A stretch of DNA of 64,000 nt, taken from the NCBI GenBank assembly GCA_041178225.1, contig JBEGVV010000258.1, positions 1,514-65,513 of the forward strand, in the 5' to 3' direction. A program made the translations under genes and the position numbers. The notes beneath the pieces were generated by a model that was given only the letters and a program-made list of their open reading frames with translations, was not told the DNA's origin and did not search any database. Positions 28,486-56,875 of this stretch are shown in pieces. The stretch comes from Pseudomonadota bacterium (GTDB lineage: Bacteria > Pseudomonadota > Alphaproteobacteria > CACIAM-22H2). Numbering within the stretch: the first letter of the stretch is position 1; each line of letters starts with the position of its first letter.

Positions 28486-28621
28486 CGCTTCGACCTTTCC
28501 GGTTTTCCCGCCGCGAGACTAGCGCCCCCGGGCGATGCCGAGTAGCGCCGCGACGCGGTGCCCGCCCCGCGCGAGGCCGCGATTGACGGAGGCGGCGCGC
28601 ATCCGCCCTACTGCGGGGCCC
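28486..28621. promoter_or_regulatory. Divergent intergenic region between the ThDP enzyme and the kinase-enolase-peptidase tricistron
   Basis: 136-bp gap between divergent starts. Confidence 0.3.
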
Positions 28622-29641
28622 ATGCAGGACAGCCTCGTCGAGATCCTCTCCGCGCTCCGCCGGCTCGGGCTCGTGCGGGGAGACGCCGATCCTCCCGCCG
28701 AGCCCCTCGCCGGCGGCGTGTCCTCCGACATATGGCGCATCGACCTTCCCGGCGGCGCGATCTGCGTGAAGCGCGCGCTCGCCCGGCTGCGCGTCGCGCA
28801 GGACTGGCGCGCGCCGGTCGAGCGCAACGCCTTCGAGGTCGCGTGGATGGAGGTCGCGGGCGAGGCCGTGCCAGGCGCCGTGCCGCGCCTCGTCGCCGTC
28901 GACGACGCTACGAAGCTCTTCGCGATGGAGTTCCTCGACCCGCGGACGCATCCGCTGTGGAAGGCGCGGCTGCGCGACGGGATCGCCGAGCCGCCGGTCG
29001 CGCGCGCCGTCGGCGAGCGCCTCGCGCGCATCCACGCCGCGACGGCCGGCCGCGACGACGTGGCGGCGCGGTTCCGCAGCGACGCGATCTTCCACGCGAT
29101 CCGCCTCGAGCCCTACCTGCTCGCCACCGCGCGCCGCCATCCCGACCTCGCGCCGCGGCTGGAGGCGCTCGTCGCGCGCACGGCCGCGACGCGCCTCGCG
29201 CTGGTGCACGGCGACGTCAGCCCGAAGAACATCCTGGCCGGCCCGAGCGGCCCGGTCTTCCTCGACGCCGAGTGCGCCTGGTACGGGGACCCGGCCTTCG
29301 ACGCGGCCTTCTGCCTCAACCATCTCCTGCTCAAGGCGGCATGGCGGCCGGCGCACGCGATCGCCTATCTCTCCCTCTTCGACGCTTTGCGGCGGTCCTA
29401 CCTCGCGGGCTGCGACTGGGAGCCGGTCGCCGGGCTCGAGGCGCGCATCGCCGCCCTTCTGCCCGCGCTCCTCCTGGCACGCGTCGACGGCAAGTCGCCG
29501 GTCGAGTACATCGTCGACGACGCGATGCGCGACGCGGTCCGCCGCGTCGCGCGCCCCCTTGTCGCCGCCCCTCCGGCCGACATCTCCGCCATCCGCGCGG
29601 CCTGGGCCGCCGAAACCGCCAGCTGGAGCCGCCATCCATGA
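28622..29641 (+). CDS. Kinase of the MtnK (methylthioribose kinase)/APH phosphotransferase superfamily
   Basis: VHGDVSPKNIL and DAECAWYGDPAFDAAFCLNHLLL match the MtnK HGDLHTGS / DPEFAFYGPxGFD motifs. Start MQDSLVEILSALRR. Confidence 0.7.
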   Translation: MQDSLVEILSALRRLGLVRGDADPPAEPLAGGVSSDIWRIDLPGGAICVKRALARLRVAQDWRAPVERNAFEVAWMEVAGEAVPGAVPRLVAVDDATKLFAMEFLDPRTHPLWKARLRDGIAEPPVARAVGERLARIHAATAGRDDVAARFRSDAIFHAIRLEPYLLATARRHPDLAPRLEALVARTAATRLALVHGDVSPKNILAGPSGPVFLDAECAWYGDPAFDAAFCLNHLLLKAAWRPAHAIAYLSLFDALRRSYLAGCDWEPVAGLEARIAALLPALLLARVDGKSPVEYIVDDAMRDAVRRVARPLVAAPPADISAIRAAWAAETASWSRHP

Positions 29642-32055: not shown

Positions 32056-35000
32056 TCAGCCGCCGTCGCCGACGACCGAGAAGGGTGCCCAGAAGATCGG
32101 GTGCGCGTAGGAGAACACGGTGCGCCCGCCCTCGACGAAGCCCGGGCCATCGATCAGCGCCAGCATCGCCTGCTGGGCTGCCTTCGCCCGCGCGAGGCCC
32201 GGATCCGCCGCCTGCCGCGCGAAGAGGTCCGTCGTCAGGGCCCGCGCGCTCGTCGTCTCGACCGGCCAGTTCGTCACCAGCAGCGCCCGCGTCCCAGCGT
32301 AGAAGAACGCGCGGCCCAGGCCGGAGACCGCCTCCGCCCCCGCGCCATCGCCCGTCGCCGTGTTGCACGCGCTCAGCACGACCCAGTCCGCATTGAGGCG
32401 CAGCCCCAGTACCTCGTCCATCGTCAGCAGGCCGTCGCCGTCGCTTCCCGCGACCGCCGGCGCCGTCAGCGCCAGCGCGGGCTGCGCCAGTCCGTTCAGG
32501 TCGCCAGGCACCAGGCCATGCGTGGCGAACATCACCACCTTGCGGTCCGAGAGGCTGGCCCCCTTCACGCGCGCCTCGCTCGCCTGCAATCCCAGGAACA
32601 CGTCGGCGGAGGGATCCGCCTTCAGCGCCACCGCGATGCTCCGCACCTCGTCGGCGGTGTCGGGAAGCCGCGGCAGGCTCGCCAGCTCGGCGCTTGCCGA
32701 GGACTGCGTCTGCGGGGCGTTGCGCCGCACCAGCGGCAGGCCTCGCGTCTGCAGCCCGCGGGTCGTCAGCTGGGCCACCTGCGTGCTGCCCGCCGCCGCC
32801 TGCTCGGTGCTGAAATACGGGTCGCCGAAGCCGATGAACGGCTTGCGCGACGCCTCCCCGGGCGCAAGGCGTCGCAACGCCCCCAGCGACGCGACCGACG
32901 GGAGCTGCGTCACCGCCTTCTCGCGCGCGAGGAACGGGACCTGCGCATAGCCGGAGAACAGCGCGCGGCCCTGAGTGTCGGCTGGCGCCGGCACCGCCCG
33001 CGTGACCAGCAGCGAGAACGGGATCTGGCCCAGCGCCTTGTCGGGCACGACCAGCAGGCTCTCCGCCCCGGCCAGCCCCGCCCTCACCGGCGCCAGGAAC
33101 TGCTCGTGCAGGCGATGCGCGAGCGCCACGTCGAAGGCGGGGATGTCGCCAAGCGTCGCCGCGTTCGGGTCAAGCGCGCGGCGCAGCCGGGCGACCGACT
33201 GCGCGATATCCTTCTCGCCGGCGGCGACCGCGGCGAAGGCCGCGGGACCGCTCTTCGGCACGGCCCACACGAAGCTTCGCGCCTGGCCAACGTAGACGCT
33301 CACCAGCGCCTCGCCGGCACGAAGCTGGGACTGCACGTCCTCGACCGTCGCGGGCCGCGGGTCGATCAGGCTCGCGTAGTCCGGGAAGCGCCGCTCGATC
33401 TCCTCGCGCAAGGACGCGCGCGCACGGCGCAGCGTGTCGATGCTCGTGCGCAGCGAAGCCGTCGCGGCCGCGTCCTGCTGGCTCGCCGGGGACGACAGGA
33501 TGTTCGACAGCAAGCCGAACTGCGCCGCGATCTGCTTGCGCGCATCCTGCTCCTGGCGCACCAGCGCCGCGAGGCCGGGGTCGCGGATCCCCGAGCGCGC
33601 CGCGCTCTCCGCCAGAGCGCGCTGCACGCCCTGCGCGCGCGCCGCGTCCGCCACGCGGAACGCCTCGGCCGCCGGGTCGAGGCCACCACCCGCGGAAGCG
33701 GGCAACGAACTCAGGAGGTCGACGTAGCTCTCCAGCACGAAGCGCTGCACGCGCTCGCGCTGCGCGCCGCCCTCCTCGTCCTCGCTCTGCCGCGACACCT
33801 GCAGCAGGACCGGCACCGACGCGCGGAAGCCGGCAAGCGCCTCCTCCCGCTTCCCCGTCGCGGCCTGCGCTGCCGCCAGGATCCCGCGCGACTGGGCCGT
33901 CTCGTAGTGCCGCTCCCCGAAATTGCGCGCGCGCTCGGACGCAAGGCGCTCGGCACTTGCCATGATCGCCGTGGCCCGGCCGGACTCGATCCGGGAGACG
34001 AGAAAGCCGGGCTGGCTCTCGACGCGGCGAAAGCGCTCGTCCGGATCGTCCGCGAACACCGCGAGGGCACGGTCGATCGCCGCATCCGACGCCGCAATGT
34101 CGCCCTCCTCGCGCGCCGCCGAGGCGGAGAGGAGGTTGCCCAAGGCGACGAAGCGCGATCCCTTGAAGACGCCATAGCGGTCGTAGGTCGCGAGGGCGAC
34201 CTCGGCGAGTTGTCGCGACTCGGCGAAACGACGCTGCTCCAGCATGTTGCGGGACAGGTTCAGCGACAGGGCGGCGACGCGAAGGCTGTCGCGCCCGAAG
34301 ACCCGCAGCGCGTGGACGAGGGCACGCCTGAACTCGACCTCGGCCTCCACCAGCCTCCCCTGCATCCGCAGCACGTTGCCGAGCTGCGCGAGGGAGACGA
34401 GGAGCTGGCTGTCCTGGAGGTCGTCGCTGACGTCCGGCACCACCGCCTTGATCGCCTGCCTGTTGGCGAGGTTCCACTGCTCGTTCTCCAGCGCGGCCCG
34501 CGAACTGCGTTCGGCCTCGGCGTAGCGCCCCTCGGCCATCCTGACCTCGGCCTCCGCGCGCAGGATCAGGGCCTCCTGCATTCGGCGAGATGCCTGGTAC
34601 CCGGACGAGCGCTGGTAGCCCGGGTCGGCGAGCGCACGCCTCGCCGCGGCAAGCCCCCGCTCGGCTGCAGCGAGATCCCCTGCCTGGGCGTCAAGGTTAG
34701 CCAGCGACGCCTCGCCCGCCGAGATTGTCCCCATCCGCCCGCTGGCGCGCGCAGCCTGCAGGCGCTTGATGGCGGCGTCATGGGCGTTCCGGGCATTGCC
34801 CACGAAGGACTCTGCCGCCATCAGTTCCTGGTAGGCCCGCGATGTGTCGAGGCGGTTTGCCTCGCCGATCCGCGCGGCCTCGCGCAGATCCCGGACCTGC
34901 CCGTCCACCAGGCCCAGTTCGCCACGCGCCTGCGCGCGCCTGAGGAGGAAGCCGTAGAGCGCGGCGGGCGAGGCACTCGCGGGAGGCTCCGCGCCGCTGG

Positions 35001-35214
35001 CGGCGCTGAGCGCGGCGACGCGCGCCGGGTCCGGGCTGGCCTGGGCGAGCAGCGCCGTGATGTCGCTGATCGTGCGCGGCGGCGGCACGAAGGCCGCCTG
35101 CCCCTGGAACCCGGCCTGGACGCGCCGCGCCTCGTCGAGGGACATGGCCGGCCGCTCGTCCTGGCAGCCGCCCATGGCAAGCAGCCCAAAGATCGCTACG
35201 ACGACGCGCTTCAT
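32056..35214 (-). CDS. Large lipoprotein with N-terminal TPR-like repeats and a C-terminal CHAT (caspase-like) protease domain
   Basis: The start MKRVVVAIFGLLAMGGCQ is a lipobox. The C-terminus has ATHG...VLSACNTATGD...GTRALLVTNWPVE, a CHAT His/Cys dyad region. The upstream 330 aa of the six-frame ORF overlaps the aminotransferase gene and is an artefact. Confidence 0.75.
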   Translation of the reverse strand: MKRVVVAIFGLLAMGGCQDERPAMSLDEARRVQAGFQGQAAFVPPPRTISDITALLAQASPDPARVAALSAASGAEPPASASPAALYGFLLRRAQARGELGLVDGQVRDLREAARIGEANRLDTSRAYQELMAAESFVGNARNAHDAAIKRLQAARASGRMGTISAGEASLANLDAQAGDLAAAERGLAAARRALADPGYQRSSGYQASRRMQEALILRAEAEVRMAEGRYAEAERSSRAALENEQWNLANRQAIKAVVPDVSDDLQDSQLLVSLAQLGNVLRMQGRLVEAEVEFRRALVHALRVFGRDSLRVAALSLNLSRNMLEQRRFAESRQLAEVALATYDRYGVFKGSRFVALGNLLSASAAREEGDIAASDAAIDRALAVFADDPDERFRRVESQPGFLVSRIESGRATAIMASAERLASERARNFGERHYETAQSRGILAAAQAATGKREEALAGFRASVPVLLQVSRQSEDEEGGAQRERVQRFVLESYVDLLSSLPASAGGGLDPAAEAFRVADAARAQGVQRALAESAARSGIRDPGLAALVRQEQDARKQIAAQFGLLSNILSSPASQQDAAATASLRTSIDTLRRARASLREEIERRFPDYASLIDPRPATVEDVQSQLRAGEALVSVYVGQARSFVWAVPKSGPAAFAAVAAGEKDIAQSVARLRRALDPNAATLGDIPAFDVALAHRLHEQFLAPVRAGLAGAESLLVVPDKALGQIPFSLLVTRAVPAPADTQGRALFSGYAQVPFLAREKAVTQLPSVASLGALRRLAPGEASRKPFIGFGDPYFSTEQAAAGSTQVAQLTTRGLQTRGLPLVRRNAPQTQSSASAELASLPRLPDTADEVRSIAVALKADPSADVFLGLQASEARVKGASLSDRKVVMFATHGLVPGDLNGLAQPALALTAPAVAGSDGDGLLTMDEVLGLRLNADWVVLSACNTATGDGAGAEAVSGLGRAFFYAGTRALLVTNWPVETTSARALTTDLFARQAADPGLARAKAAQQAMLALIDGPGFVEGGRTVFSYAHPIFWAPFSVVGDGG

Positions 35215-35300
35215 CGCCCCTCCGCCAAGCACCCCGCTTCCTGAAAATCTAGATTGCGCCGACGGGAGCGAGCAAGGACCTGGGCGACAGGCACCGCTTC

Positions 35301-38863: not shown

Positions 38864-39634
38864 TCAGGCGGCGCGCAGGCGCCCGCTCCCCAGGGCGGCA
38901 AGCGCGATCGCGGCGCCGAAGAGGGCGAGCGATCCCGGCTCGGGCACCTGGCCGGGCGGCGGGTCGCCGTCGCCGGGATTGCCGAACCCGGGTTCCGTCA
39001 ACGACGTCCCGTATTGGAAGAACAGGCTCTCGGCGTCGATGCTGCCAGCGGCCGAGGGGTCGAAACCCGCTGGCAATCCCGAGAGGGTGAAGACGACCTC
39101 GTTGCGGATCATCGCGTTCGCACCGGTCACCGACGCGTTGCCGGTCGTGGGGTCGTCCGCCGCCGAGGCCAGGCCGTATTGCATCCCGTTCACGCCGACA
39201 GGCCCCTGCAGGTTGGATCCCGGGAAATTGGCGTTGCCGAAGAGGCCGAACCCGGCACTGCTGATGCCGGAATTGGCACCGGACGGAATCACGATCCCCG
39301 TGGCATAGGCCCATTCGCCCCCGACCACGCCGCCCGGGTCGCTGGTGCCGAAGAGCACCGACGACGTGCCCGGGACGATCGCCGAGACCGGCGTCAGGAC
39401 CGGGTTCCCGGCAAGCTTGAAGAATATGGCCGTAAGCAACTGGTCAGGCAGAAGTATATCCGATCCGATATTCCTCAGGCTCACCACGAGGTTCGTCCCC
39501 GAGGCGTCGAACGTGGCGGCGGCGATGCGCAGCCCGTCGGTCCCAAGGAACGACTTTGGCGCGGCATGCGCGCTGCCGCATGCCGCGACGATGCAGATCG
39601 CCGTCGCGGCGGCGGCCCGTCTTCCCGTGTCCAT
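38864..39634 (-). CDS. PEP-CTERM sorting-domain secreted protein
   Basis: Signal peptide MDTGRRAAAATAICIVAACGSAHA. The C-terminus VPEPGSLALFGAAIALAALGSGRLRAA is the PEP motif followed by a TM helix and a basic tail. Confidence 0.85.
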   Translation of the reverse strand: MDTGRRAAAATAICIVAACGSAHAAPKSFLGTDGLRIAAATFDASGTNLVVSLRNIGSDILLPDQLLTAIFFKLAGNPVLTPVSAIVPGTSSVLFGTSDPGGVVGGEWAYATGIVIPSGANSGISSAGFGLFGNANFPGSNLQGPVGVNGMQYGLASAADDPTTGNASVTGANAMIRNEVVFTLSGLPAGFDPSAAGSIDAESLFFQYGTSLTEPGFGNPGDGDPPPGQVPEPGSLALFGAAIALAALGSGRLRAA

Positions 39635-41972: not shown

Positions 41973-43349
41973 TCAGCGCGCCGACCGCGTGGGCCGCGGG
42001 TCGTCAGGGACCTTTGCGCCGCGCCCTTCGTCGGCCTCGGGCGGCATCTCGATCTGCAGCACGTTGACCAGTTCGCCCATCGCGGCAAGCAGGCGGTAGG
42101 CGGAGAAGACGCGGCTGCTCTCGGCGCTGACCAGGCGCCCCTGGGACACGAACAGCTCGTTCTCCGCGTTCAGCACGTCGATCAGGCTGCGCTGTCCCTG
42201 GTTGAAGAACTGGTCGGTGTAGGCGTCGCGCACGCGGCGGTTCTTCTCCACCGCGCCGGTCAGCGGCGGGATGCGCTCGCTCGCGGTCTGGTACTGGACC
42301 CAGGAGCGACGCGCCTCCTCCTCGGTGGTGCGCGCCGTCGCGTGGCGCTGCGCCATCGCCTGGGACATGCGGCCGAGCGCGACGCGGCGCTGGGCCTGGT
42401 CGGACCCGCCGCGATAGAGGTTCCAGCGCATGACCACGAGCGCCGAGGCGTCGTTGCTGTCGCCGCGCGTGCCGTCGATGTTGCGGTCGCGCGTCGCGCC
42501 GAGCTCGAGGTTGAGCTTCGGGTAGGCCGCGGCATCCGCGACGCCGATCTCGTTCTCGGCGACGGAGATGTCCGCCTCGGTGATCCTGAGCGCGCGGTTG
42601 CCGCTGCGGCTGCGCTCGATGGCGGCGTCGAGCGTGCTGACGTCGCGCATCGCGGCCTGCGGGAACTCCGCGGCCGCGAGCTGGCCGGCGCGCTTGTTCA
42701 CGACGATGAAGTAGCGGTTCTCGGCATCCTCGAGGGCGCCCTGCGTCTCCACCAGCGTGGCCTGCGCGTTGTCGAGTCGCGCGCGGGCCTGCTCCTGGTC
42801 GGCGGCAGGGGCCGCGCCACGGCCCACGCGCTGCGAGATGCGGCCGACGATCTGCCTGTGGATCTCGAGGTTCTGCTCGGCGAGGCGCACGAGGCGGCGC
42901 TGCCTGAGGACGTCGATATGCGCCTCGACCGCGTCGAGGGCCACGACCTCCGACGTCTCGCCGACGCGGCGCGCCGCGGATTGCCCGCGCGCCTTCTGCC
43001 GCTCGACCTCGCTGTCGGTCTCCCATCCATCGAACAGGCGCTGCGTCACGAAGACGCCGGTCTCGCGACGCGGCAGCGTGGCCGAGCCGCCGCGCGCGCG
43101 CGTGGTGCCGTTGTCCGACCACTCGGGCCCGCCGCCCGCGCGCAGGTCGAGCTGGGGCAGGTACTGGCCGCGGGCACGCGCCAGTTCCTGCTCCACCGCC
43201 TGCCTGTTGAACGCCACGACATCCACGCGCGGGTTGCTGCGCACGGCTTCCTGGGCGCTCTCCCTGAGCGACTGCCCGGCCGCGCCGCCTGCGGTGGCGA
43301 AAATGAGCGCCAGGGCGAGGGGAAACCGGATCTTCGCTTGCTGGAACAC
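41973..43349 (-). CDS. TolC-family outer-membrane efflux protein (type I secretion type)
   Basis: Signal peptide MFQQAKIRFPLALALIFATAGGAAGQ. There are two repeated halves, and LESAQ / NPRVDVVAFNRQA are TolC-like. Confidence 0.8.
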   Translation of the reverse strand: MFQQAKIRFPLALALIFATAGGAAGQSLRESAQEAVRSNPRVDVVAFNRQAVEQELARARGQYLPQLDLRAGGGPEWSDNGTTRARGGSATLPRRETGVFVTQRLFDGWETDSEVERQKARGQSAARRVGETSEVVALDAVEAHIDVLRQRRLVRLAEQNLEIHRQIVGRISQRVGRGAAPAADQEQARARLDNAQATLVETQGALEDAENRYFIVVNKRAGQLAAAEFPQAAMRDVSTLDAAIERSRSGNRALRITEADISVAENEIGVADAAAYPKLNLELGATRDRNIDGTRGDSNDASALVVMRWNLYRGGSDQAQRRVALGRMSQAMAQRHATARTTEEEARRSWVQYQTASERIPPLTGAVEKNRRVRDAYTDQFFNQGQRSLIDVLNAENELFVSQGRLVSAESSRVFSAYRLLAAMGELVNVLQIEMPPEADEGRGAKVPDDPRPTRSAR

Positions 43350-43389
43350 GGGACGACCTCGATTTGCGACTAGCGTCGCGAAGCATTGG

Positions 43390-43490
43390 ACGAATTCCGC
43401 CGGGAACTCAACGCTTCGTTGGATATTTACGAATATTTTGGGCCGCCGCCGTTAACCAAACGGACAGGTCGCCGGTATAGCCTCTGGGGC
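43390..43490. promoter_or_regulatory. Divergent promoter region between tolC-like and the T1SS ABC gene, with an AT-rich -10-like box
   Basis: ttggatatttacgaatattttggg. Confidence 0.3.
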
Positions 43491-45758
43491 ATGAGCGACC
43501 CTGCGGCCATCGAGACGCCCCCCTCCCAGCACGCGCCAGCGCGCGCGCGGCAGGCGACCGATGCACCACCGCCCGCGCCGCACGCCGCGCCCGCGGCCGG
43601 CATCGGCGGCCACGAGGCCGACGACCCGCTCCTCGCCTGCCTCGCGCTCATGACCGCGCTGCTGGGCAGGCCGACCAGCCTCGAGACGCTGCGCTCCGGG
43701 CTTCCCCTCCACGCCGACAAGGCGCCGCCCGCGCTCTTCGTGCGGGCAGCCGAACGTGCTGGGTTCGCCGCGCGCGCGACGCGCAGGAAGCACGTCGTCG
43801 ACATACCGCAGGTCAACATGCCCTGCGTCCTCGCGCTCAAGGACGGCTCGGCCTGCGTGCTGCTCTCGATCCGCCGCGGCGACGCGGAGATCATGGTCCC
43901 CGAGACCGGCGGCCGGCAGCACGTCGGCGTCGCGACGCTGCAGGAACTCTTCTCCGGGCAAACGCTCTTCGTGCGGCTGCCGCACGAGCCCGACGCGCGG
44001 TCGGGGCACCTGCCCGTGCGCCGGCAGGATCGCTGGTTCTGGAGCGCGATCGCGGATCTCTGGCCGGTCTACGGCCACGTCTTCGTCGCCGCGGTCGCGA
44101 TCAACCTGCTCGGCCTCGCCGCGTCGATCTACTCCATGAACGTCTACGACCGCGTCGTCCCGAACAACGCGATGGAGACGCTCTGGGTGCTGACCATCGG
44201 CGTCGTCGTGGTCTACGTCTTCGACTTCCTGCTGCGCACCGCGCGGGCCTATTTCGTCGACGCGGCCGGCAAGGGCGCGGACGCCGTCATCGCCTCGCGC
44301 CTCGTCGAGCAGGTGCTGTCGATGCGCCTGGAGGCTCGCCCGGCCTCGACCGGCGCCCTCGCCAGCAACCTCCGCGAATACGAGTCGCTGCGCGAGTTCT
44401 TCACCTCGGCGACGCTGGTCACGCTCGTCGACCTCCCCTTCGTCGCCATCTTCGTCGCCGTGGCCTGGGCGATCGCCGGCCCGGTCGCCTACGTGCCGCT
44501 CGTCGCGCTGCCGGTCGTACTCGTCGTCGGGCTGCTGCTGCAGGTGCCGCTCTCCGCCGCGGTCTCGCGCAACCAGGCCGAATCCGCGCAGAAGCACGCG
44601 ATCCTCGTCGAGGCGATCGAGGGGCTGGAGAGCCTGAAGGTCGCGCGCGCCGAGGGCCGGACGCAGAAGCTGTGGGAGCGCTTCGTCGCCGCCTCCGCGC
44701 GCTCGGCGATGGCGACGCGCGTGCTCTCCACCTTCGCGATCAACTTCACCGCCTTCGCGACCTCGCTCGCCAGCGCGCTCGTCATCTTCCTCGGCGTGCA
44801 CGAGATCGCCGCCGGCCGGATGACGATGGGCGCGCTCATCGCGGTGTCGATCCTCACGGGCCGCGCCATGGCGCCGCTCGGCCAGGTCGCGGCCCTGATC
44901 GTGCGCGTCAACCAGTCCATGGCGGCGCTCTCCGCGCTCGACCGCCTGATGAAGGCGCCGCGCGAGCGCGACCCGAGCGAGAGCTACGTCGCGCGGCCCT
45001 CGCTGCGCGGGCAGATCGAGCTGCGCGACGTCAGCTTCGCCTACCCGCAGTCCGGCGCGCCCGGCGGCGGCAGCGCCGTGGCGGCGATCAGCGGCGTGTC
45101 GATCTTCGTCGCGCCGGGCGAGCGCGTGGGAATCGTCGGGCGCGTCGGGTCCGGCAAGAGCACCCTCGCCCGCCTGATCACCGGCCTCTACCAGCCGACG
45201 CAGGGATCCGTGCTTGTCGACGGGACCGACATCCGGCAGGTCGATCCCGCAGAGCTGCGACGACAGGTCGGCTACGTGCCGCAGGACGCGCACCTCGTCT
45301 TCGGCTCGGTGAAGGAGAACATCCTCATCGGCTCCCCCTTCGCCGACGACGCGGCGCTGCTGCGCGCCGCGACGATCGCCGGCGTCGACGACTTCGTGCG
45401 CTCGCGCCCCCAGGGCTACGACATGCCGGTAGGCGAGCAGGGCCGCTACCTCTCGGGAGGCCAGCGCGCGGCCGTCACGATCGCGCGCGCCCTCGTCTCC
45501 AACCCGCCGATCCTGCTTCTGGACGAGCCCAGCGGCGCGATGGACTCGACCTCGGAGCAGCGCCTCAAGGCACGCCTGTCGGAGATCCTCGCCGGAAGGA
45601 CGCTGCTCCTCGTCACGCATCGCGGATCGATGCTGTCGATGGTCTAGCGGCTGGTGGTCATGGACCAGGGCCGCATCGTGGCAGACGGGCCGCGCGACCG
45701 GATCATCGCCGAGCTCCAGGCCGGCGCGATCCGCGGCAGCGCGAAGGGCATGCCATGA
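43491..45758 (+). pseudogene. Type I secretion ABC transporter (HlyB-like, with an N-terminal C39-like domain) interrupted by an in-frame TAG at 45645..45647. The intact ORF runs 43491..45647.
   Basis: Walker A GRVGSGKST, LSGGQRAAV, ILLLDEPSGAMD and the H-loop VTHR are present. After the TAG the same frame continues RLVVMDQGRIVADGP... to a TGA that overlaps the hlyD ATG. Confidence 0.6.
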
Positions 45759-47083
45759 CGGCCCGGCGCAGGATCGTCGAGGCGGACTTCGCGCCCGAGG
45801 GCGCGCTCGCGGCCCAGTCGGGCATCCGCCGCCTCGGCTGGATCGTCTCCTTCCTCGTCGTGTCCTTCCTCGGCGGCTTCATCTACTGGGCCTCGGTGGC
45901 GGCGCTCGACGAGGTGACGCGCGGCGATGGACGCGTCATCCCCTCGCAGCGCGTGCAGGTCATCCAGAACCTCGAGGGCGGCATCGTCTCGGAGATCCTC
46001 GTGCGCGAGGGCCAGATCGTCGAGCGCGACAGCGTGCTCGTGCGCATCGCGAACACCGCGGCGGAGGCCGACCTGCAGGGCAACCGCGCGCAGTCCCATG
46101 CGCTGCGCGGCGCCATCGCGCGGCTGGAGGCCGAGCTCCAGGGCGCTGGCGCGCTAGAGTTCCCCGCCTCGCTCGTCGCCGACGCGCCCGACATCGTCGC
46201 CGCGGAGCGCAGGCTGGCCGAGGCGCGGCGCGACCAGCTCGAGGCGCAGGTGGCGGTCATGCGCGAGCAGGGCGACCAGCGGCGCAGCGAGATCGTCGAG
46301 CTCGAGGCCCGCATCGTCGCGCTCGAGCGTTCCCGCGCCCTCGCCCAGCAGGAGCTCGGCATCGTCGAGCCGCTGATACGCTCGGGCTCCGGCTCGCGCA
46401 TCGAGCTCGTGCGAATCCAGCAGCGCGTCAACGACATCCAGACGCAGATCACCGCCGCCGAGCTTGCCCTCCCGCGGGCGCGCAACGCGCATGCCGAGGT
46501 CCTCCGGCGCATCGACGAGCGGCGCGCGACCTTCCGCTCGGAGGCCAGCACCGACCTCAACCAGCGCCGCGCGCAGCTTGCGGCGCTGACCGAGAAGCTG
46601 CAGGCCGACCGCGACCGCGTCACGCGCACCGAGGTGCGCTCGCCCGTGCGCGGGACGATCAAGGACATGAAGGTCTCCACGGTCGGCGGCGTCATCCGCC
46701 CCGGCCAGGACATCCTCGAGATCGTGCCGCTCGAGGACACGCTGCTCGTCGAGGCGCAGCTGCGCCCCGCCGACATCGCCTTCGTGCGGCCCGGGCAGCC
46801 CGCGGTCGTGAAGGTGACGGCCTACGACTTCTCGATCTTCGGGGGGCTGGAGGCCGAGCTCGAGCAGATCAGCGCCGACACGATCCAGGACGAGCGGGGC
46901 GAGCGCTGGTTCCGCGTCAGGCTGCGCACGCAGAAGGCACATCTCGGGACGGAGGAGAAGCCCCTCCCGATCATCCCCGGCATGACCGCGGGGGTGGAGA
47001 TCCTCACCGGCCGCAAGACGGTCCTCGACTACCTCATGAAGCCCATCCTTCGGGCGAGGGATCGCGCGCTGCGCGAACGCTGA
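45755..47083 (+). CDS. HlyD-family type I secretion periplasmic adaptor
   Basis: An N-terminal TM helix, long coiled-coil segments and a C-terminal VEAQLRPADIAFVRPGQPAVVKVTAYDF...IPGMTAGVEI. Confidence 0.9.
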   Translation: MTARRRIVEADFAPEGALAAQSGIRRLGWIVSFLVVSFLGGFIYWASVAALDEVTRGDGRVIPSQRVQVIQNLEGGIVSEILVREGQIVERDSVLVRIANTAAEADLQGNRAQSHALRGAIARLEAELQGAGALEFPASLVADAPDIVAAERRLAEARRDQLEAQVAVMREQGDQRRSEIVELEARIVALERSRALAQQELGIVEPLIRSGSGSRIELVRIQQRVNDIQTQITAAELALPRARNAHAEVLRRIDERRATFRSEASTDLNQRRAQLAALTEKLQADRDRVTRTEVRSPVRGTIKDMKVSTVGGVIRPGQDILEIVPLEDTLLVEAQLRPADIAFVRPGQPAVVKVTAYDFSIFGGLEAELEQISADTIQDERGERWFRVRLRTQKAHLGTEEKPLPIIPGMTAGVEILTGRKTVLDYLMKPILRARDRALRER

Positions 47084-47084
47084 G

Positions 47085-47438
47085 ATGCCCTACGTCGAAC
47101 GCGATTCCGTCGGGCGCATCGCCGCCCTGAGCGAGAAGCCGACCGGCCGCGCGCTCGAGTTCCTCGACGACGGCTCGCCGGAGCTGCGCCACTTCCTCTC
47201 GCGCACGAGGCCGCAGGCCGATCCGCGCCAGTCCCAGGAGGCGCTCGACTCGCTGCGCTCGAGCGACGCGGAGCTGGTGCGCGTGGTGGAGGACCTGATC
47301 GAGCTCCTGGTGCACAAGCGCACGATCGCGATCGAGGAACTGCCCGTGCCGGTGCGCCGCAAGATGGAGGCGCGCGCGCGTCTGCGCGAGCGCTATCGCG
47401 CGAACCCGCTGCTGCGCTTCGACGACGACACGATCTGA
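47085..47438 (+). CDS. Hypothetical acidic 117-aa protein coupled to hlyD
   Basis: It begins 1 nt after the hlyD stop. Composition is normal and I recognise no motif. Confidence 0.5.
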   Translation: MPYVERDSVGRIAALSEKPTGRALEFLDDGSPELRHFLSRTRPQADPRQSQEALDSLRSSDAELVRVVEDLIELLVHKRTIAIEELPVPVRRKMEARARLRERYRANPLLRFDDDTI

Positions 47439-50763: not shown

Positions 50764-52471
50764 TCGCGTCGCCAAACTTCGCCGCCAGCATCATCGTCGG
50801 CAGGTTCAGGTTGGCGCGCGGCGCGGTCGGCATGACCGATGCGTCGACGACGCGGAGCCCGTCGACCCCGTGGAGGCGCGCCTGCAGCGGGTCCACCACG
50901 GCGCCCCGGTCCGAGCCCGGCCCCATGCGGCATGTCCCGCAGGGGTGCCACTGGCCGAACACGCGCGCACGGACATGCGCCTCGAGCGCCTCCTCGTCGG
51001 CGACGAGGGCGTCGAGCGACACGCCGCCAGACACGATCCTCTCCATGGCCAGGCGCCGCAGCGGCGGGAGCATGTCGAGAAGCAACGCCGCCGGGGCCGT
51101 CGCGAGGATGTTGCGCAGGCTGCGTGTCCCCAGCGCGCGCGCCACGCCGGAATAGGTCGAGGGCGACGGGCCCTCGATGCATCGCGCGAGCGGCTCGGTG
51201 CGCGCCAGCCTCGCGAGGAATCGGAACGCGTCCACGAGCCGTCGTGCATCGCGCGGGTCGGCGAGGAAGTCGAAATTGGCCAGAGGCCCGGTCGCCGGAT
51301 CGGGCGATCGCAGCACGACCCGGCCCCGCGAATGGACCTTGTTGAGCCATGCGACGAGCGTGCCGGTGCGGCGTCCAACCGGATGCCAGCCGGACTTCGC
51401 GATCGCCATCATGTAGAGGTCGGATGCCGGGCTTCCCGGTAGCCCCGAACTGAAGCGCAGTGCCACGTGGTTGTGGCGGCGCGTCGTCCCTGCGAGCCGC
51501 GCCCAGGGCTTGATGAAGGCCGATATCGAGATCCCGGGATGCTCCTGCAGGTTCCGGCCGACGCCCTCGCGGTCGAGCCGCACCTCGATGCCCAGCGCCC
51601 GCAAGTCGCCGCCCGGCCCGATGCCGGAGCGCAAGAGCAGGGCCGGGGAATGGATCGCCCCCGCGCACAGCACGACCTCCGCCGCGCGCACCAGGCCCGC
51701 TGCCCGCCCATGCACGACCTCGACGCCGCAGGCACGCCGCCCCTCGAAGGCGAGGCGGCTGGCCTCCGCGCCGGCGAGGACATGCAGGTTCGGGCGCGCC
51801 CGCGTCGAGGCCCCGAGGAAGGCCATCGCCGCGGAGACCCGATGCCGCCCGTCATTGGACAGGCTCTGCGCGAACCATCCGTCGCCGAAGACGCCGTTCT
51901 GGTCGCCGATGTCGGCGTGGCCGAGCGCGTGGAGCGCATCCGCGACGGCGGTCGAGAAGCCCGGCCAGAGCGGGCGGGCGACCCTGTGGATCGGTATCGG
52001 GCCGGACGCCCCGTGGAGCGGCCCCGAGAAGTCGAGGTCGCGCTCGATCGCGCGGAAGAAGGGCAGGACGTCGTCCCAGCCCCAGCCCTCCGCGCCGAGG
52101 CCGCGCCACTCCTCGTAGTCGTCGGGCGTGCCGCGATTGGCGACCTGCCCGTTGATGCTCGAGCCGCCACCGAGCAGCCTCGCCTGCTCGTAGCGTCGCT
52201 GTGGCGGCCGCGGCGGCGCGTTGTGGCCCACCGGCGAGAAGTTCGCGGCGATGTCGGGCCAATGGTTCGCGGGATCGAACGCGGCGACGCCCGGATACAT
52301 GTCGAGGATCTCCGGTGGCTCCTGCCCCGGCGGGACGTCCCTCCCGGCCTCGAGCAGGAGCACCCTGCGGGACGGATCGCGAGAGAGCGCTTCGGCCATG
52401 ACGCAGCCCGCGCTGCCGCCACCGACCACGACGAAGTCCCAGCGTGCCCCGAGCACCTCGGCGAGGCTCAT
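50723..52471 (-). CDS. GMC family oxidoreductase
   Basis: Start MSLAEVLGARWDFVVVGGGSAGCVMAEAL, GGGSSINGQV and HPCGTCRMG. Confidence 0.9.
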   Translation of the reverse strand: MSLAEVLGARWDFVVVGGGSAGCVMAEALSRDPSRRVLLLEAGRDVPPGQEPPEILDMYPGVAAFDPANHWPDIAANFSPVGHNAPPRPPQRRYEQARLLGGGSSINGQVANRGTPDDYEEWRGLGAEGWGWDDVLPFFRAIERDLDFSGPLHGASGPIPIHRVARPLWPGFSTAVADALHALGHADIGDQNGVFGDGWFAQSLSNDGRHRVSAAMAFLGASTRARPNLHVLAGAEASRLAFEGRRACGVEVVHGRAAGLVRAAEVVLCAGAIHSPALLLRSGIGPGGDLRALGIEVRLDREGVGRNLQEHPGISISAFIKPWARLAGTTRRHNHVALRFSSGLPGSPASDLYMMAIAKSGWHPVGRRTGTLVAWLNKVHSRGRVVLRSPDPATGPLANFDFLADPRDARRLVDAFRFLARLARTEPLARCIEGPSPSTYSGVARALGTRSLRNILATAPAALLLDMLPPLRRLAMERIVSGGVSLDALVADEEALEAHVRARVFGQWHPCGTCRMGPGSDRGAVVDPLQARLHGVDGLRVVDASVMPTAPRANLNLPTMMLAAKFGDAIIRASAAGGARPT

Positions 52472-53319
52472 CCCTTCACCGCGCCCTTGGTCAGCCCCGA
52501 GACGACATGCCGGCCGAGCAGCGCGAAGGCGAGGAGGATCGGCACGATCGCCAGCGTGGCCGCCGCCGTCAGCGGCCCCCATTCCCGGCCGAAGAAGCCG
52601 ATGAAGGAATAGATCATCGGCTGGACGGGCTTGAGCTCCGGCGCGTCCACCATCACGGAACCTGCGACGAACTCGTTCCAGCTGCCCACGAAGGCGAGGA
52701 CCCCGGCCGCGCCGAGCGCAGGCCGCGCAAGCGGAAGCATGACGTGCCGCAGGATGTCGGCATGCGTTCCTCCATCGACGATGACCGCCTCGTCGAGTTC
52801 GCGCGGGATGGCCTCGATCACGCCCTTGGTGATCCAGATCGCCATCGGTAGCTGGTGGGCGGTGTAGATGAGCGGCAGCACGTACCAGGTGTTCGTGATG
52901 CCCAGTCGCATGAACCAGATGTAGTTCGGGATCAGCAGGGCGGCGGCGCCAAGCGAGAGCGGGATGCTCGCGACGATGGCGAGGAAGAGGCCCTGGCGGC
53001 CCGGGAATTCAAGCCGGTCGAAGGCATAGGCGGCAGGCAGGGCGAGCGCCAGCGTCGCGGCGACGGAGAGGCCCGCATAGGCGAGGCTGGTGCCGAGGCT
53101 TCCCAGGAAGCCGCTCTCGACCACGCGCACGTAGTGCTCGAGCGTCGGCGAGAAGCCAAGGATGACTGGCGGGAAGCGCAGGATGTCGGCGTCGCCCTTG
53201 ATGGACGTGAGCGCTCCCCAGGCGAGCGGCACGAGGTTGAGCACGCAGAGCAACGCCATGCCGGCGGCCAGGAGCGTGCCGGCGGCGAGGCCGGCAAGGC
53301 GCCGCGGGGCGGCCGTCAT
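52468..53319 (-). CDS. Carbohydrate ABC transporter permease (MalG-like)
   Basis: 283 aa with 6 TMS and the EAA loop ELDEAVIVDGG. Confidence 0.85.
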   Translation of the reverse strand: MTAAPRRLAGLAAGTLLAAGMALLCVLNLVPLAWGALTSIKGDADILRFPPVILGFSPTLEHYVRVVESGFLGSLGTSLAYAGLSVAATLALALPAAYAFDRLEFPGRQGLFLAIVASIPLSLGAAALLIPNYIWFMRLGITNTWYVLPLIYTAHQLPMAIWITKGVIEAIPRELDEAVIVDGGTHADILRHVMLPLARPALGAAGVLAFVGSWNEFVAGSVMVDAPELKPVQPMIYSFIGFFGREWGPLTAAATLAIVPILLAFALLGRHVVSGLTKGAVKG

Positions 53320-54173
53320 GCGCGCCACCGCGAGAGCCTGACATACGCGAGGACGAGCAGGATGTTGCCCGCGAACATCACCAGGGCGAGCGCCGTCGCG
53401 CTGCCGAGGTCGAAGACCGCGAAGGCGCGCTCGTAGACGTCGATCGCCAGGACGCGCGTCGCATCGCGCGGCCCGCCCCCGGTGAGGACGAGCGGGGTCT
53501 CCACCGTGTTTATGTTCGAGAGCGTCAGCACGACCGCCGCCAGGAGCAGCGGCGTCTTGAGGAGCGGCAGGGTGACAAGGCGGAAGACCTGCCAGCCATT
53601 CGCCCCGTCGATGCGCGCGGCCTCGTGGAGCTCCGAGGGGATGCTCTTGAGGCCGGCGAGCAGCACGATCACGGCATAGCCGATGCGCTTCCAGACCGAG
53701 ACGACGACCAGCAACCCCATCGCCCCGGAGGGCGAGGCAAGCCATCCCTCGCCGCCGGCGGAGACGAAGGAGAGCACGTAGGAGGCGAAGCCGATGTCGC
53801 TGACGAAGACCCAGCGGAAGAGCAGCGTCGCGACCACGGTCGAGATGATCCACGGGACGATGACCACGGACTGCACGACGAGGCCAATCGCCGGGCGCAT
53901 CCGGTCGATCCAGGCCGAGAGGCCCAGCGCGATGGCTATCGTCAGGACGACGGAACTCGCGGTGTGGAACGCCGTCCTGCCGAAGGTGGCGACGAGCTCG
54001 TGGTCGTCGAGCAGCCGCAGGAAGTTGCGCATCCCCGCGAAATCGGTCGGGGCGCCGTACTCGATCCGGAACAGGCTGAACCAGAGCGCGTAGGCGACCG
54101 GGGACAGGAGCACGAAGCCGAGCAGCCCGAAGCTCGGCGCGGCGAACGCGAATGCGGTCCTGCTGTCGCGCAT
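53316..54173 (-). CDS. Carbohydrate ABC transporter permease (MalF-like)
   Basis: 285 aa with 6 TMS and the EAA loop LHEAARIDGANGWQVFR. Confidence 0.85.
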   Translation of the reverse strand: MRDSRTAFAFAAPSFGLLGFVLLSPVAYALWFSLFRIEYGAPTDFAGMRNFLRLLDDHELVATFGRTAFHTASSVVLTIAIALGLSAWIDRMRPAIGLVVQSVVIVPWIISTVVATLLFRWVFVSDIGFASYVLSFVSAGGEGWLASPSGAMGLLVVVSVWKRIGYAVIVLLAGLKSIPSELHEAARIDGANGWQVFRLVTLPLLKTPLLLAAVVLTLSNINTVETPLVLTGGGPRDATRVLAIDVYERAFAVFDLGSATALALVMFAGNILLVLAYVRLSRWRA

Positions 54174-54231
54174 GCGTCGCGGGCGTGACCGGCGGGCCGC
54201 GTCGCCGCGGCCCGTGGTCCCTGCCCTCGCC

Positions 54232-55542
54232 TCAGCGGTTGTTCTGCTGGTTGAAGCGACGCTCGGCGGCCTCGAGCGCGGCCTTCGGGTCGACATTCCC
54301 GACGACGACGTCCTGCGCCGCCTTGTTGAGCGCCTGGCGATAGCCACCGACCCCGTACTCGACGGAAGGGATCCAGCCGAATTCCTTCACGCCGCGCGAG
54401 GCGATGGCGAGATAGGCGTTCTGGGGCTTGGCCATGAACTCGGTCATCTGGCGCAGCGTCGAGGGCGCGCCGGGAAGCTGGCCGCCCATCTCGACCCAGA
54501 GCCGGTCGGACTCGCCGGTCGACATGTGCTCGAGGAACCTGCCTGCGAGCGCCTTGTTCTTGCCGCCCGACCACACGCCGACGGCCCAGCCCGCCATCAC
54601 GCCGGGGGAATGCGGCTTCCCGTCGACGCCCGGCCAGATCATGAAACCGACATTCTCGGCGCCAAGCTTGGCCTGCATCGTCGAGATGCGCACCACGGCG
54701 CCGCCGAACATGGCGAGCCGCCCCGCCGCGAACTGCTCGTAGAGGTCCTCGGCCGTCCAGCCCACCGCCTGCCGCGGCGTCACGCCGTGCCGTAGCACCA
54801 TGTCGGTCTGGAGCTTCAGCGCCTCGGCGCCGACGGGATTGCTCCACTTCGCGCGGCCATTCGCCTCGAAGAGGTCGCCCTGCCGGGCCAGGAGCATCGA
54901 CGTCATCATCTGGGAGTCGGCGAGGTTCTCGCTGAATTGCTGGCCGAAGCCCCAACGGGTCACGTTGCCGGCGGCATCCCGCGTGGTCAGCTTCCTCGCC
55001 GCCTCGATGAAGGCCGGCCAGGTCGAGAGCGTCGACGGGTCGATGCCCGCCTCCCTGAGGAAGTCGGTCCGGTAGATGACCCCGTAGTAGTTCCTGGAAT
55101 GGAAGAGGCAATGGACCCTGCCCTCCCTCTCGCAGCGCGCCCAGTAGCCGTCCTTGCGCTCCGCGACGTCGGCGGCGGGCCACTTGCCGAGGAAGAGCTC
55201 GTTCAGGTCGGCAAGCGAGCCGGTGCGCAGCGCGTCGCCCAGCAGGTCGGTCACGACCCAGACGATGTCCGGAGCGGTGCCCGCGCGATGCGCCGCCAGG
55301 AACTTGGGCGTCATCTGGTCCCAGACCTGCGGCTCGACCACGACCTTCGTGCCCGGGTTCGCCGCCTCGAAGCGCCGGATGATCTCCGCCAGCGCCTTCT
55401 CGCGCGGCGCGTTGCCGGCGGGGTTGAGGAAGGTCCACATGCGGATCGTCTGCGCGGCGGCCCCCGTCGGGACGAGGGCGCAGGCCGCTAGCCCGCAGAG
55501 GACGGCGCCGGCAAGCGCGCGTCGCAGGAAACTGCCGATCAT
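54232..55542 (-). CDS. ABC transporter extracellular solute-binding protein (family 1, sugar type)
   Basis: Signal peptide MIGSFLRRALAGAVLCGLAACALVPTGAAAQ. AGGAGGAAG ribosome-binding site upstream. Confidence 0.85.
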   Translation of the reverse strand: MIGSFLRRALAGAVLCGLAACALVPTGAAAQTIRMWTFLNPAGNAPREKALAEIIRRFEAANPGTKVVVEPQVWDQMTPKFLAAHRAGTAPDIVWVVTDLLGDALRTGSLADLNELFLGKWPAADVAERKDGYWARCEREGRVHCLFHSRNYYGVIYRTDFLREAGIDPSTLSTWPAFIEAARKLTTRDAAGNVTRWGFGQQFSENLADSQMMTSMLLARQGDLFEANGRAKWSNPVGAEALKLQTDMVLRHGVTPRQAVGWTAEDLYEQFAAGRLAMFGGAVVRISTMQAKLGAENVGFMIWPGVDGKPHSPGVMAGWAVGVWSGGKNKALAGRFLEHMSTGESDRLWVEMGGQLPGAPSTLRQMTEFMAKPQNAYLAIASRGVKEFGWIPSVEYGVGGYRQALNKAAQDVVVGNVDPKAALEAAERRFNQQNNR

Positions 55543-55615
55543 GTCTTCCTCCTTGGTCGTCGGTTGCATTCGTGGCCAGGCGGCCCCGCCATGCGGGGCG
55601 GCGCAGGCCCGCCGG

Positions 55616-56788
55616 TCATCGGGTGCCTTGCGGCAGGTCGGTGCGGTAGGTCTCCGCCAGTGCCCAGTCGAGGTCGCAGCCATGGCCCGGCGCATCCCGC
55701 GCCACGAGGCAGCCATCGACCGTCTCCAGTGGCGGCACGGGCAACTCGTCGCGCAGCGCGTTCGGCAGGCGGTTCGCCTCGTAGAGCCGGCAATTGTCCA
55801 CGGCGCGGCAGACATGCAGCGCCGCGGAGACGGCGATGCCGCCGCCCACGCCATGGGGCGAGATCCGCACGCCGTGGCGCCGCGCCGGGGCGGAAAGCGC
55901 GAGGATGCCGCTGACGCCGCCCGCGCGGCTGATGTTCGGCATCAGGACGTCGACGGCCCCTGCCCGCAGGAAGGTCTCGTAGCCCTCGACGGTGAACTCG
56001 TTCTCGCCCGCCGCTATCGGCATGGGCGCCGCGCGCCTGATCTCCGCCAGGGCCGCCGGGTCGTCGGGCCTGATCGGCTCCTCGAGCCATGCGAGGTCGT
56101 AGGGCTTGAGCGCCTTCGCGAAGGCGATCGAGGTCGGCACGTCATAGGCGCAGTTGACGTCGAGCATCAGGCCGCGCCCCGAGCCGATCGCCGCGCGCAC
56201 CGCGGCGACATGTGCAAGGTCCACCTCGATGCCGCGGCCGACCTTCAGCTTGATCGCGCGATAGCCCTGCGCGACGTATTCAAGCGCCTTCGCCGCGGAA
56301 CGCTCGGGCGTCGGCAGGAAGGGAACCGGGCTCACGTAGAGGTCGACGGGCCCGGGCGTCGCGCCAAGCAGCGTGGCCAGGGGCTTGCCCGCGCGCCGCG
56401 CCTTGAGGTCCCAGAGCGCGATATCGACCCCGGACAGCGCCTCCATCGCCGGGCCGCGCGTATGGCCCATGGCGATGAAATAGGCCCGCAGCGCAGCGAG
56501 CATGGCGGCGGGCTCGTCGAGGTCCTCTCCCACCAGGGCAGGCGCGATGACGTCGTTGACGAGGCAGGCGCTGGCCATCGCGCGCGGCAACCCGAATGCC
56601 TCGCCAAGGCCGCGGCAACCATCGTCGCTCTCCGCGACCACGATCGTGGAGTGCTGGCCCGAGCGCGGGATCTTCCGGAAATGGCTCGCGGGCGAGAGGA
56701 TCTCGGGAGGCACGCGATCGAGCCCGCCGTAGAGCCGCGCGAACGACCCGTACAGGGGCAGCGCCACGAGGCGCGCTAGCTTTGCCAC
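55616..56788 (-). CDS. Mandelate racemase/muconate lactonizing enzyme family protein (enolase superfamily, sugar-acid-dehydratase-like)
   Basis: KLKVGRG, LMLDVNCAYD, LAWLEEP and AAGENEF carry the metal-ligand D/E/D pattern. Confidence 0.8.
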   Translation of the reverse strand: MAKLARLVALPLYGSFARLYGGLDRVPPEILSPASHFRKIPRSGQHSTIVVAESDDGCRGLGEAFGLPRAMASACLVNDVIAPALVGEDLDEPAAMLAALRAYFIAMGHTRGPAMEALSGVDIALWDLKARRAGKPLATLLGATPGPVDLYVSPVPFLPTPERSAAKALEYVAQGYRAIKLKVGRGIEVDLAHVAAVRAAIGSGRGLMLDVNCAYDVPTSIAFAKALKPYDLAWLEEPIRPDDPAALAEIRRAAPMPIAAGENEFTVEGYETFLRAGAVDVLMPNISRAGGVSGILALSAPARRHGVRISPHGVGGGIAVSAALHVCRAVDNCRLYEANRLPNALRDELPVPPLETVDGCLVARDAPGHGCDLDWALAETYRTDLPQGTR

Positions 56789-56875
56789 TTTCCCTCCCCC
56801 CCGGAAGACAGGAGCCAGCCTAGCGATGTTTCTGCGCTTGTAAACGACGCGCCGGGCCCGCCGCCCGCCGCGCCC

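What the first reader, a model, noticed from the sequence alone, without database searches (positions are those of the whole stretch)
45641..45760. T1SS ABC exporter interrupted by an in-frame amber codon 37 codons before its natural stop
The HlyB-like ABC gene reads ...LLLVTHRGSMLSMV then TAG (45645-45647). The same frame then continues RLVVMDQGRIVADGPRDRIIAELQAGAIRGSAKGMP and ends in a TGA that overlaps the hlyD ATG (ATGA at 45755-45758). The post-TAG peptide is the canonical ABC C-terminus (for example HlyB ...ADRIIVMEKGKIV...), so the TAG replaces a conserved acidic codon, probably Asp or Glu. The cause is one of three things: a recent nonsense mutation that inactivates or truncates the exporter downstream of the H-loop, a sequencing/assembly error, or programmed read-through. 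A truncation would also uncouple translation of hlyD from the ABC gene.
Basis: seen in the sequence. Interest (0 to 1): 0.7.

Follow-up and report, generated by a model that had tools for sequence, protein, structure and literature searches.

The report
One-base amber stop in secretion-pump gene
One G-to-T change found only in this contig turns a conserved glutamate codon of a type I secretion ABC transporter gene into a stop codon, which is either an ordinary recent knockout or a consensus error.

Summary
TAG at 45645-45647 is in frame, at codon 719 of a 755-codon ABC gene (ATG 43491). The same frame runs 36 more codons to a TGA that overlaps the hlyD ATG (ATGA 45755-45758).

The gene is an LssB/LapB-type type I secretion permease/ATPase. 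It sits between a divergent TolC-family gene and an HlyD-family gene.

All 19 distinct near-identical contigs (98.8-99.9% DNA identity) that cover the site read GAG (Glu). That includes the nearest relative, which has 12 mismatches in 15 kb. Two relatives at 90-94% identity also read GAG, and one at 79% reads GAC. Among 118 full-length homologues the column is D106/E9/N3, and none ends there. With Glu at 719 the window protein is identical to a protein that at least 24 other contigs encode.

No other gene in the window has an in-frame stop. There is no tRNA gene and no unusual RNA fold at the site.

So this is a single private G>T nonsense change. The truncated product would lack the last two beta-strands and the terminal helix of the ATPase domain and is probably inactive. 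I cannot separate a real recent mutation (about 0.6) from a consensus error (about 0.33) without reads. Programmed read-through is very unlikely. The finding is ordinary and of low interest.

The parts
41973..43349 (-). TolC-family outer-membrane component of the type I secretion system, transcribed divergently from the ABC gene
   Evidence: Pfam PF02321 OEP, E 1e-41. NCBIfam TIGR01844 type_I_sec_TolC, 255 bits against a cut-off of 225.
43491..45647 (+). 5' part of the LssB/LapB-type ABC permease/ATPase gene: 718 sense codons followed by the amber codon. It holds the C39-like N-terminal domain, the transmembrane domain, and the ATPase domain through the H-loop (THR).
   Evidence: Pfam Peptidase_C39, ABC_membrane and ABC_tran. 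TIGR03375, 910 bits. The exact 718-aa product is NCBI MEY4682522.1, seen on 1 contig only.
45645..45647 (+). In-frame amber codon TAG at codon 719. Every relative has GAG (Glu) or GAC (Asp) here, so the difference is a single G>T at 45645.
   Evidence: 19 of 19 near-identical contigs have G at 45645. Family column D106/E9/N3.
45648..45758 (+). Stranded in-frame tail of the ABC gene: 36 codons plus TGA. It encodes the last two beta-strands and the terminal helix of the nucleotide-binding domain.
   Evidence: Translation. The tail residues R, L, D, G, A, D are nearly invariant in 118 homologues. In the AF2 model of the 96%-identical P0001 the region forms strands 743-748 and 751-757 and helix 758-767, with block-mean pLDDT about 89-96 for residues 741-770.
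45743..45748 (+). Shine-Dalgarno-like GAAGGG, 6 nt upstream of the hlyD ATG. It could allow hlyD to initiate independently.
   Evidence: Read directly from the sequence. Its function is inferred.
45755..47083 (+). HlyD-family periplasmic adaptor gene. Its ATG overlaps the natural TGA of the ABC gene.
   Evidence: TIGR01843 type_I_hlyD, 397 bits against a cut-off of 209. Pfam HlyD_3. The identical protein occurs on 6 other contigs.
47085..47438 (+). Conserved 117-aa ORF that starts 1 nt after the hlyD stop. It is always present downstream of hlyD in relatives, and its function is unknown.
   Evidence: No Pfam or NCBIfam hit. The exact sequence is indexed in 219 blocks of the collection, in the same position.

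Best explanation
A very recent single-base substitution (G>T at 45645) in this strain converted Glu719 (GAG) of an otherwise intact LssB/LapB-type type I secretion ABC permease/ATPase into an amber stop. Translation ends 9 residues after the H-loop histidine. The product lacks the final beta-hairpin and C-terminal helix of the nucleotide-binding domain, is probably misfolded or ATPase-dead, and so disables the TolC-ABC-HlyD exporter in this lineage. Ribosomes now stop 108 nt before the hlyD start, so hlyD loses translational coupling and must rely on its own GAAGGG ribosome-binding site. Shown here: the stop, that it is private to this contig, the ancestral GAG, the conservation of the lost segment, and the integrity of everything else. 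Inferred: loss of function, the effect on hlyD, and that the T is present in the DNA rather than introduced during sequencing or assembly.
For: All 19 distinct contigs of 98.8-99.9% DNA identity that cover the site have GAG, and the window alone has TAG. The nearest relative, L077, has 12 mismatches in 15,042 bp and shares the window's other rare alleles such as 44519A, but it still has GAG, so the change is younger than that split. The window protein differs from the widespread full-length P0122 only at residue 719. P0122 is on at least 24 contigs, whereas the 718-aa form is on 1. The other differences from the close relative L056 within the ABC gene, including two downstream of the TAG, are all synonymous, so there is no sign of decay. 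Of 20 coding positions where the window differed from all comparators in 26.4 kb, 14 were synonymous. That pattern indicates the contig's unusual bases are mostly real strain variation shaped by selection, not random error. The lost segment is conserved: R+1, L+2, D+6, G+8, A+12 and D+13 are invariant or nearly so in 118 homologues, and none has fewer than 30 residues after the column. The AF2 model places two strands and a helix there at high confidence. Alignments to solved HlyB (8dck, 7sgr) run to query residue 742, past the stop. A second frame-breaking lesion in the same operon, a 2-bp deletion in hlyD, occurs in another assembly of the same population. That fits an operon that tolerates knockouts, although it could also be assembly noise.
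Against: No reads are available, so a consensus error is not excluded. Once L077 is included, only two positions in the 15-kb overlap are truly private to the window: 45645 and the synonymous 54598. The base rate of real private changes there is therefore low, and the odds against error are modest. Loss of function is inferred from conservation and a predicted structure and was not measured.
Confidence: 0.6

Rival explanations
1. The T at 45645 is a sequencing, library or assembly consensus error in this MAG contig. The organism actually carries GAG and an intact exporter.
For: The T is a singleton among 20 near-identical sequences. The same lineage, L077, has G. With G the protein is identical to the common full-length allele. 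The exact truncated protein is recorded on one contig only. G>T is the change expected from oxidative guanine damage in library preparation (my own knowledge, not tested here). Another assembly of this population carries an odd 2-bp deletion in hlyD at a strain-variable site, so consensus glitches may occur in these data.
Against: The window shows no other frame-breaking difference from its relatives over 26.4 kb; the only indels involving the window are an intergenic poly-C length change and a 15-bp tandem repeat. Its other unusual bases are mostly synonymous, as real variation would be. A 67.6-kb contig implies reasonable coverage. Graph assemblers generally keep only k-mers seen in several reads (my own knowledge).
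Confidence: 0.33
2. The amber codon is decoded, through programmed read-through, a suppressor tRNA, pyrrolysine or leaky termination. Full-length transporter is still made and the TAG is functionally tolerated or regulatory.
For: The base after the stop is C (TAG-C), which is a comparatively weak termination context in E. coli (my own knowledge). None of about 52 genuine genes in the window ends in TAG, against about 52 TGA and 1 TAA, so TAG is at least a rare stop here. The downstream frame is fully intact.
Against: The stop is not conserved: 19 of 19 conspecific contigs and 3 of 3 more distant relatives have a sense codon. No other gene in 64 kb has an in-frame TAG with coding sequence on both sides. 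No tRNA gene lies in the window. The RNA around the site folds no better than shuffles, z = -1.55 with 14 of 200 shuffles as stable. An intact tail is what a very recent mutation or an error would also leave.
Confidence: 0.04
3. The gene naturally ends at 45647, as a short-C-terminus variant of the family, and the downstream similarity is coincidental.
For: None found.
Against: The tail matches the family profile to position 695 of 696. All 118 full-length homologues continue at least 30 residues past this column. The tail is identical to that of P0122.
Confidence: 0.01

Closest known systems
LssB/LapB-type type I secretion ABC permease/ATPase (NCBIfam TIGR03375; JGI labels relatives 'ATP-binding cassette subfamily C protein LapB')
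   Same: End-to-end profile match above the curated cut-off when read through the stop. Same domain order: C39-like domain, transmembrane domain, ATPase domain. Adjacent HlyD-family adaptor with ATGA overlap, and a TolC-family gene next door.
   Different: The reading frame is broken by an amber codon at residue 719. No RTX or giant-adhesin substrate gene, and no GGxGxD repeat in a genuine frame, is present in the 64-kb window.
E. coli HlyB, the haemolysin exporter (solved structures 8dck, 7sgr)
   Same: Homologous over query residues 108-742, E about 1e-85, including the H-loop and the strands after it. By visual alignment, which is my own knowledge of the HlyB sequence and not computed here, the amber codon corresponds to the Asp of the ...NADRIIVM... 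segment.
   Different: It scores below the HlyB-subfamily cut-off: TIGR01846 gives 428 bits against 725. It is therefore a relative, not an orthologue.
Ordinary nonsense pseudogene or strain-level loss-of-function polymorphism
   Same: A single-base change from a sense codon present in all close relatives, an intact downstream frame, and no accumulated secondary damage.
   Different: Nothing distinguishes it from that category except that its reality cannot be confirmed without reads.

Membership tests
LssB/LapB-type T1SS ABC permease/ATPase (TIGR03375) | Whole-protein score above the curated cut-off across the full profile | tested here: met
   910.3 bits against a cut-off of 693.1, profile positions 1-695 of 696, with X at residue 719.
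LssB/LapB-type T1SS ABC permease/ATPase (TIGR03375) | Domain order: N-terminal C39-like domain, ABC transmembrane domain, ABC ATPase domain | tested here: met
   PF03412 (28 bits, cut-off 22), PF00664 and PF00005. Walker A GSGKST, signature LSGGQ, Walker B LLLDEP and H-loop THR are visible in the translation.
LssB/LapB-type T1SS ABC permease/ATPase (TIGR03375) | Genomic partnership with an HlyD-family adaptor and a TolC-family outer-membrane protein | tested here: met
   TIGR01843, 397 bits, for 45755-47083. TIGR01844, 255 bits, for 41973-43349.
LssB/LapB-type T1SS ABC permease/ATPase (TIGR03375) | Uninterrupted reading frame encoding the complete ATPase domain | tested here: not met
   TAG at codon 719 of 755. 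The gene belongs to the family by descent but, as written, is a truncated allele.
LssB/LapB-type T1SS ABC permease/ATPase (TIGR03375) | A cognate secreted substrate (large adhesin or RTX protein) is exported | not testable with these tools
   No RTX-repeat ORF in the window. The rest of the genome was not available.
Programmed stop-codon read-through or recoding | The in-frame stop is conserved among orthologues | tested here: not met
   Sense codon in 19 of 19 near-identical contigs, in L001, L033 and L003, and in 118 of 118 homologues.
Programmed stop-codon read-through or recoding | Other genes of the organism also carry in-frame copies of the same stop codon | tested here: not met
   A scan for stops flanked on both sides by coding-like composition found only 45645 as a plausible in-gene stop. 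The rest are gene junctions or antisense frames.
Programmed stop-codon read-through or recoding | Decoding machinery (suppressor tRNA, pyl genes) or a stimulatory RNA element | tested here: inconclusive
   No tRNA gene in the window and no significant local RNA structure, z = -1.55. The rest of the genome was not seen.
Nonsense pseudogene (recent loss-of-function allele) | The stop replaces a sense codon present in close relatives by a single substitution, with the downstream frame still intact | tested here: met
   GAG>TAG, and the protein is otherwise identical to P0122.
Nonsense pseudogene (recent loss-of-function allele) | The variant is present in the organism's DNA (read support) | not testable with these tools
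   No reads are available. The truncated product is on record from a single contig.

The most novel reading that the evidence does not exclude
TAG is hardly used as a terminator in this lineage (0 of about 52 genes in the window), and the stop sits in a weak TAG-C context. The most novel reading not excluded is that amber termination is leaky or suppressed in this strain. Enough full-length transporter would then still be made, and the nonsense allele would be nearly neutral or act as a dosage switch on the secretion system.
Probability: 0.04. Interest if true: 0.5.

Novelty: already known. Interest (0 to 1): 0.08.

Why it matters
It matters little. If the change is real, one strain of an uncultured freshwater alphaproteobacterium has just lost an LssB/LapB-type type I secretion system. 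That is a routine example of strain-level gene inactivation. Together with the hlyD frameshift seen in another assembly, it hints mildly that this exporter is dispensable in the plankton. If the change is an error, the only consequence is a mis-annotation: NCBI lists the 718-aa product as 'hypothetical protein'. In both cases the practical point is that the gene should be annotated as an LssB/LapB-type T1SS ABC transporter interrupted at codon 719.

Tried and rejected
Natural short C-terminus: rejected, because the profile and all 118 homologues continue past the site.

Genome-wide TAG recoding: a scan for in-frame stops with coding-like flanks found no other credible case.

Suppressor tRNA nearby: none in the window.

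Stimulatory RNA structure: the fold is not significant, z = -1.55.

Independent recovery of the TAG allele: one metagenome scan used a pattern that accepts either T or G at the site. It returned a single contig, which carries GAG. Exact look-up of the truncated protein with three alternative starts found only the window's own NCBI record, and no encoding contig is on record in the assembly index.

Extending the private-SNP census to the left part of the window: this failed because the chosen protein (28535-29638) was not on record. The census therefore covers 37.1-63.5 kb only.

Substrate search: no GGxGxD repeats in genuine frames.

Literature: a search for C-terminal truncation experiments on HlyB gave nothing directly usable.

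Correction: my first queries started one codon early, at 43488 (GGC) instead of ATG 43491. The codon numbers printed are therefore one too high. The frame and the conclusions are unaffected.

Full report
**1. Observation**

The sequence reads ...atg gtc TAG cgg ctg gtg gtc atg gac..., with TAG at 45645-45647. Translating from 43386 to 45758 in one frame gives a long ABC-transporter protein. The peptide before the stop ends ...LLLVTHRGSMLSMV. After the stop the frame reads RLVVMDQGRIVADGPRDRIIAELQAGAIRGSAKGMP and then a second stop.

- The likely start is ATG 43491. The amber is therefore codon 719, and the natural TGA (45756-45758) would be codon 756.
- That TGA overlaps the ATG of the next gene, giving ATGA at 45755-45758.

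**2. What the gene is**

- The part before the stop carries Peptidase_C39 (weak), ABC_membrane and ABC_tran domains.
- Read through the stop, the protein matches NCBIfam TIGR03375 (type_I_sec_LssB) over profile positions 1-695 of 696, with 910 bits against a cut-off of 693.
- It falls below the cut-offs for the HlyB (TIGR01846) and PrtD (TIGR01842) subfamilies.
- The downstream gene (45755-47083) is an HlyD-family type I adaptor: TIGR01843, 397 bits.
- The divergent upstream gene (41973-43349, minus strand) is a TolC-family protein: PF02321 and TIGR01844, 255 bits.
- This is therefore a complete three-component type I secretion locus of the LssB/LapB kind.
- No RTX-type substrate is present in the window.
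- The surroundings are ordinary chromosomal genes, including urease, peptidases, sugar and TRAP transporters and oxidoreductases.
- The window has 72% G+C.

**3. Comparison with relatives**

- A genome-collection scan found uncultured freshwater Alphaproteobacteria MAG contigs at 94%, 90% and 79% DNA identity: L001, L033 and L003. They read GAG, GAG and GAC at this codon and continue to a stop that overlaps hlyD.
- A metagenome scan used a pattern that accepted either T or G. It found one contig, 99.77% identical, with GAG.
- The exact 718-aa truncated protein is NCBI MEY4682522.1 ('hypothetical protein RLZZ276_4171'), recorded on a single 67,641-bp contig, which is evidently the source of this window.
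- Its 90% cluster contains a 755-aa form, P0122, found in NCBI, JGI, ENA and Logan assemblies. P0122 is encoded on at least 24 contigs.
- P0122 differs from the window's read-through translation at exactly one residue, E719.
- In all, 19 distinct contigs of 98.8-99.9% identity cover the site, and all have G at 45645.
- The nearest relative, L077, differs from the window at 12 of 15,042 positions. It shares the window's other rare alleles, for example 44519A, but has GAG.
- Within that 15-kb overlap, only 45645 and the synonymous 54598 are private to the window.

**4. Conservation of what is lost**

- In an alignment of 118 full-length homologues the column is D (106), E (9) or N (3).
- The following residues R, L, D, G, A and D are invariant or nearly so.
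- Every homologue has at least 30 residues after the column.
- An AlphaFold2 model of the 96%-identical P0001 has mean pLDDT 81. In P0001 numbering, which is window numbering plus 23, it shows:
  - strand 727-731 leading to the H-loop His733;
  - a short helix at 736-740;
  - strands 743-748 and 751-757 and helix 758-767, with block-mean pLDDT about 89-96 for residues 741-770.
- The amber corresponds to P0001 residue 742. The truncated product would therefore end just before this beta-hairpin and the terminal helix.
- Solved HlyB structures (8dck, 7sgr) align to query residue 742, past the stop.
- That losing these elements inactivates the ATPase is my inference from their conservation and from general knowledge of ABC nucleotide-binding domains. 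It was not tested.

**5. Is it programmed?**

- The stop is not conserved in any relative.
- A scan of all six frames for stops flanked on both sides by coding-like composition found no other credible in-gene stop in 64 kb.
- ARAGORN found no tRNA gene.
- The RNA around the site folds no better than shuffled controls: z = -1.55, with 14 of 200 shuffles as stable.
- One mildly odd fact remains. None of about 52 genuine genes in the window ends in TAG, against about 52 TGA and 1 TAA. TAG is thus a rare terminator here. That alone does not indicate recoding.

**6. Real mutation or error?**

This cannot be settled without reads.

For a real mutation:
- Among 20 coding positions where the window differed from all comparators over 26.4 kb, 14 were synonymous. 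That is the signature of genuine variation under selection, not random error.
- The contig shows no other frame-breaking difference from its relatives.

For an error:
- The T is a singleton.
- Once the closest strain is included, the count of truly private changes is small.
- G>T is a known damage-type artefact (my own knowledge).

The ABC-gene differences between the window and the close relative L056, other than the stop itself, are all synonymous, including two downstream of the TAG. If the change is real, it is therefore very recent. I put a real recent nonsense allele at about 0.6, an artefact at about 0.33, and tolerated or suppressed read-through at about 0.04.

**7. Consequences if real**

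- The ABC subunit is truncated 9 residues after the H-loop histidine.
- Ribosomes terminate 108 nt upstream of the hlyD start, so the ATGA-type coupling is lost.
- A GAAGGG sequence 6 nt upstream of the hlyD ATG may still allow independent initiation (inference).
- Another assembly of the same population carries a 2-bp deletion that splits hlyD. This is either a second knockout of the same system or assembly noise.

**8. Verdict**

The biology is ordinary: a single-base, contig-private amber codon in a well-known type of transporter gene. Novelty is 'already known' and interest is low.

Noticed in passing
window 50769-56851: A 6.1-kb block is a presence/absence polymorphism within the same population. 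It holds a GMC oxidoreductase, two BPD_transp_1 permeases, a solute-binding protein and an MR_MLE enolase-family enzyme. It is present in the window and in L067, L068, L070, L072-L075 and L077, and absent with clean junctions in L069, L071, L076, L080 and the 90% relative L033.
   Followed up: partly
L062/L071 (ENA ERZ27251821 k141_128739), equivalent to window 46332-46333: A 2-bp deletion (CGTTCCCGCG to CGTTCGCG) splits hlyD into 81-aa and 224-aa gene calls in another assembly of the same population. It lies exactly at two closely spaced polymorphic sites, 46330 and 46333. It is either an independent knockout of the same secretion operon or an assembly glitch.
   Followed up: partly
whole window: Stop-codon usage is extremely skewed. 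About 52 genuine genes end in TGA and one in TAA (stop at 1715-1717, minus strand). None ends in TAG. All other TAG-terminated ORFs are antisense-frame artefacts with first-position GC near 0.5.
   Followed up: partly
window 47085-47438 (+): A 117-aa ORF starts 1 nt after the hlyD stop. It has no Pfam or NCBIfam match and ends ...LLRFDDDTI. It is always found in this position in relatives, and its exact sequence is indexed in 219 blocks of the collection. It may be an unrecognised accessory or substrate of the secretion system.
   Followed up: partly
window 38864-39634 (-) and 32056-35244 (-): There is an XDD4-family exosortase-dependent surface protein (NF045504, 192 bits). There is also a 1062-aa predicted lipoprotein with TPR and CHAT domains.
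   Followed up: no
window ~62900-62908 and 56796: Relatives L069 and L071 carry an extra 15-bp tandem copy (GCGCGCGCCATGGTT-like) near 62,900. Several relatives have one more C in an intergenic poly-C run at 56,796.
   Followed up: no
window 43350-43490: The divergent TolC/ABC intergenic region is locally AT-rich (ggatatttacgaatatttt). It carries a cluster of population polymorphisms at 43419-43438. Gene callers disagree on the ABC start, giving 755 aa against 790 aa.
   Followed up: no
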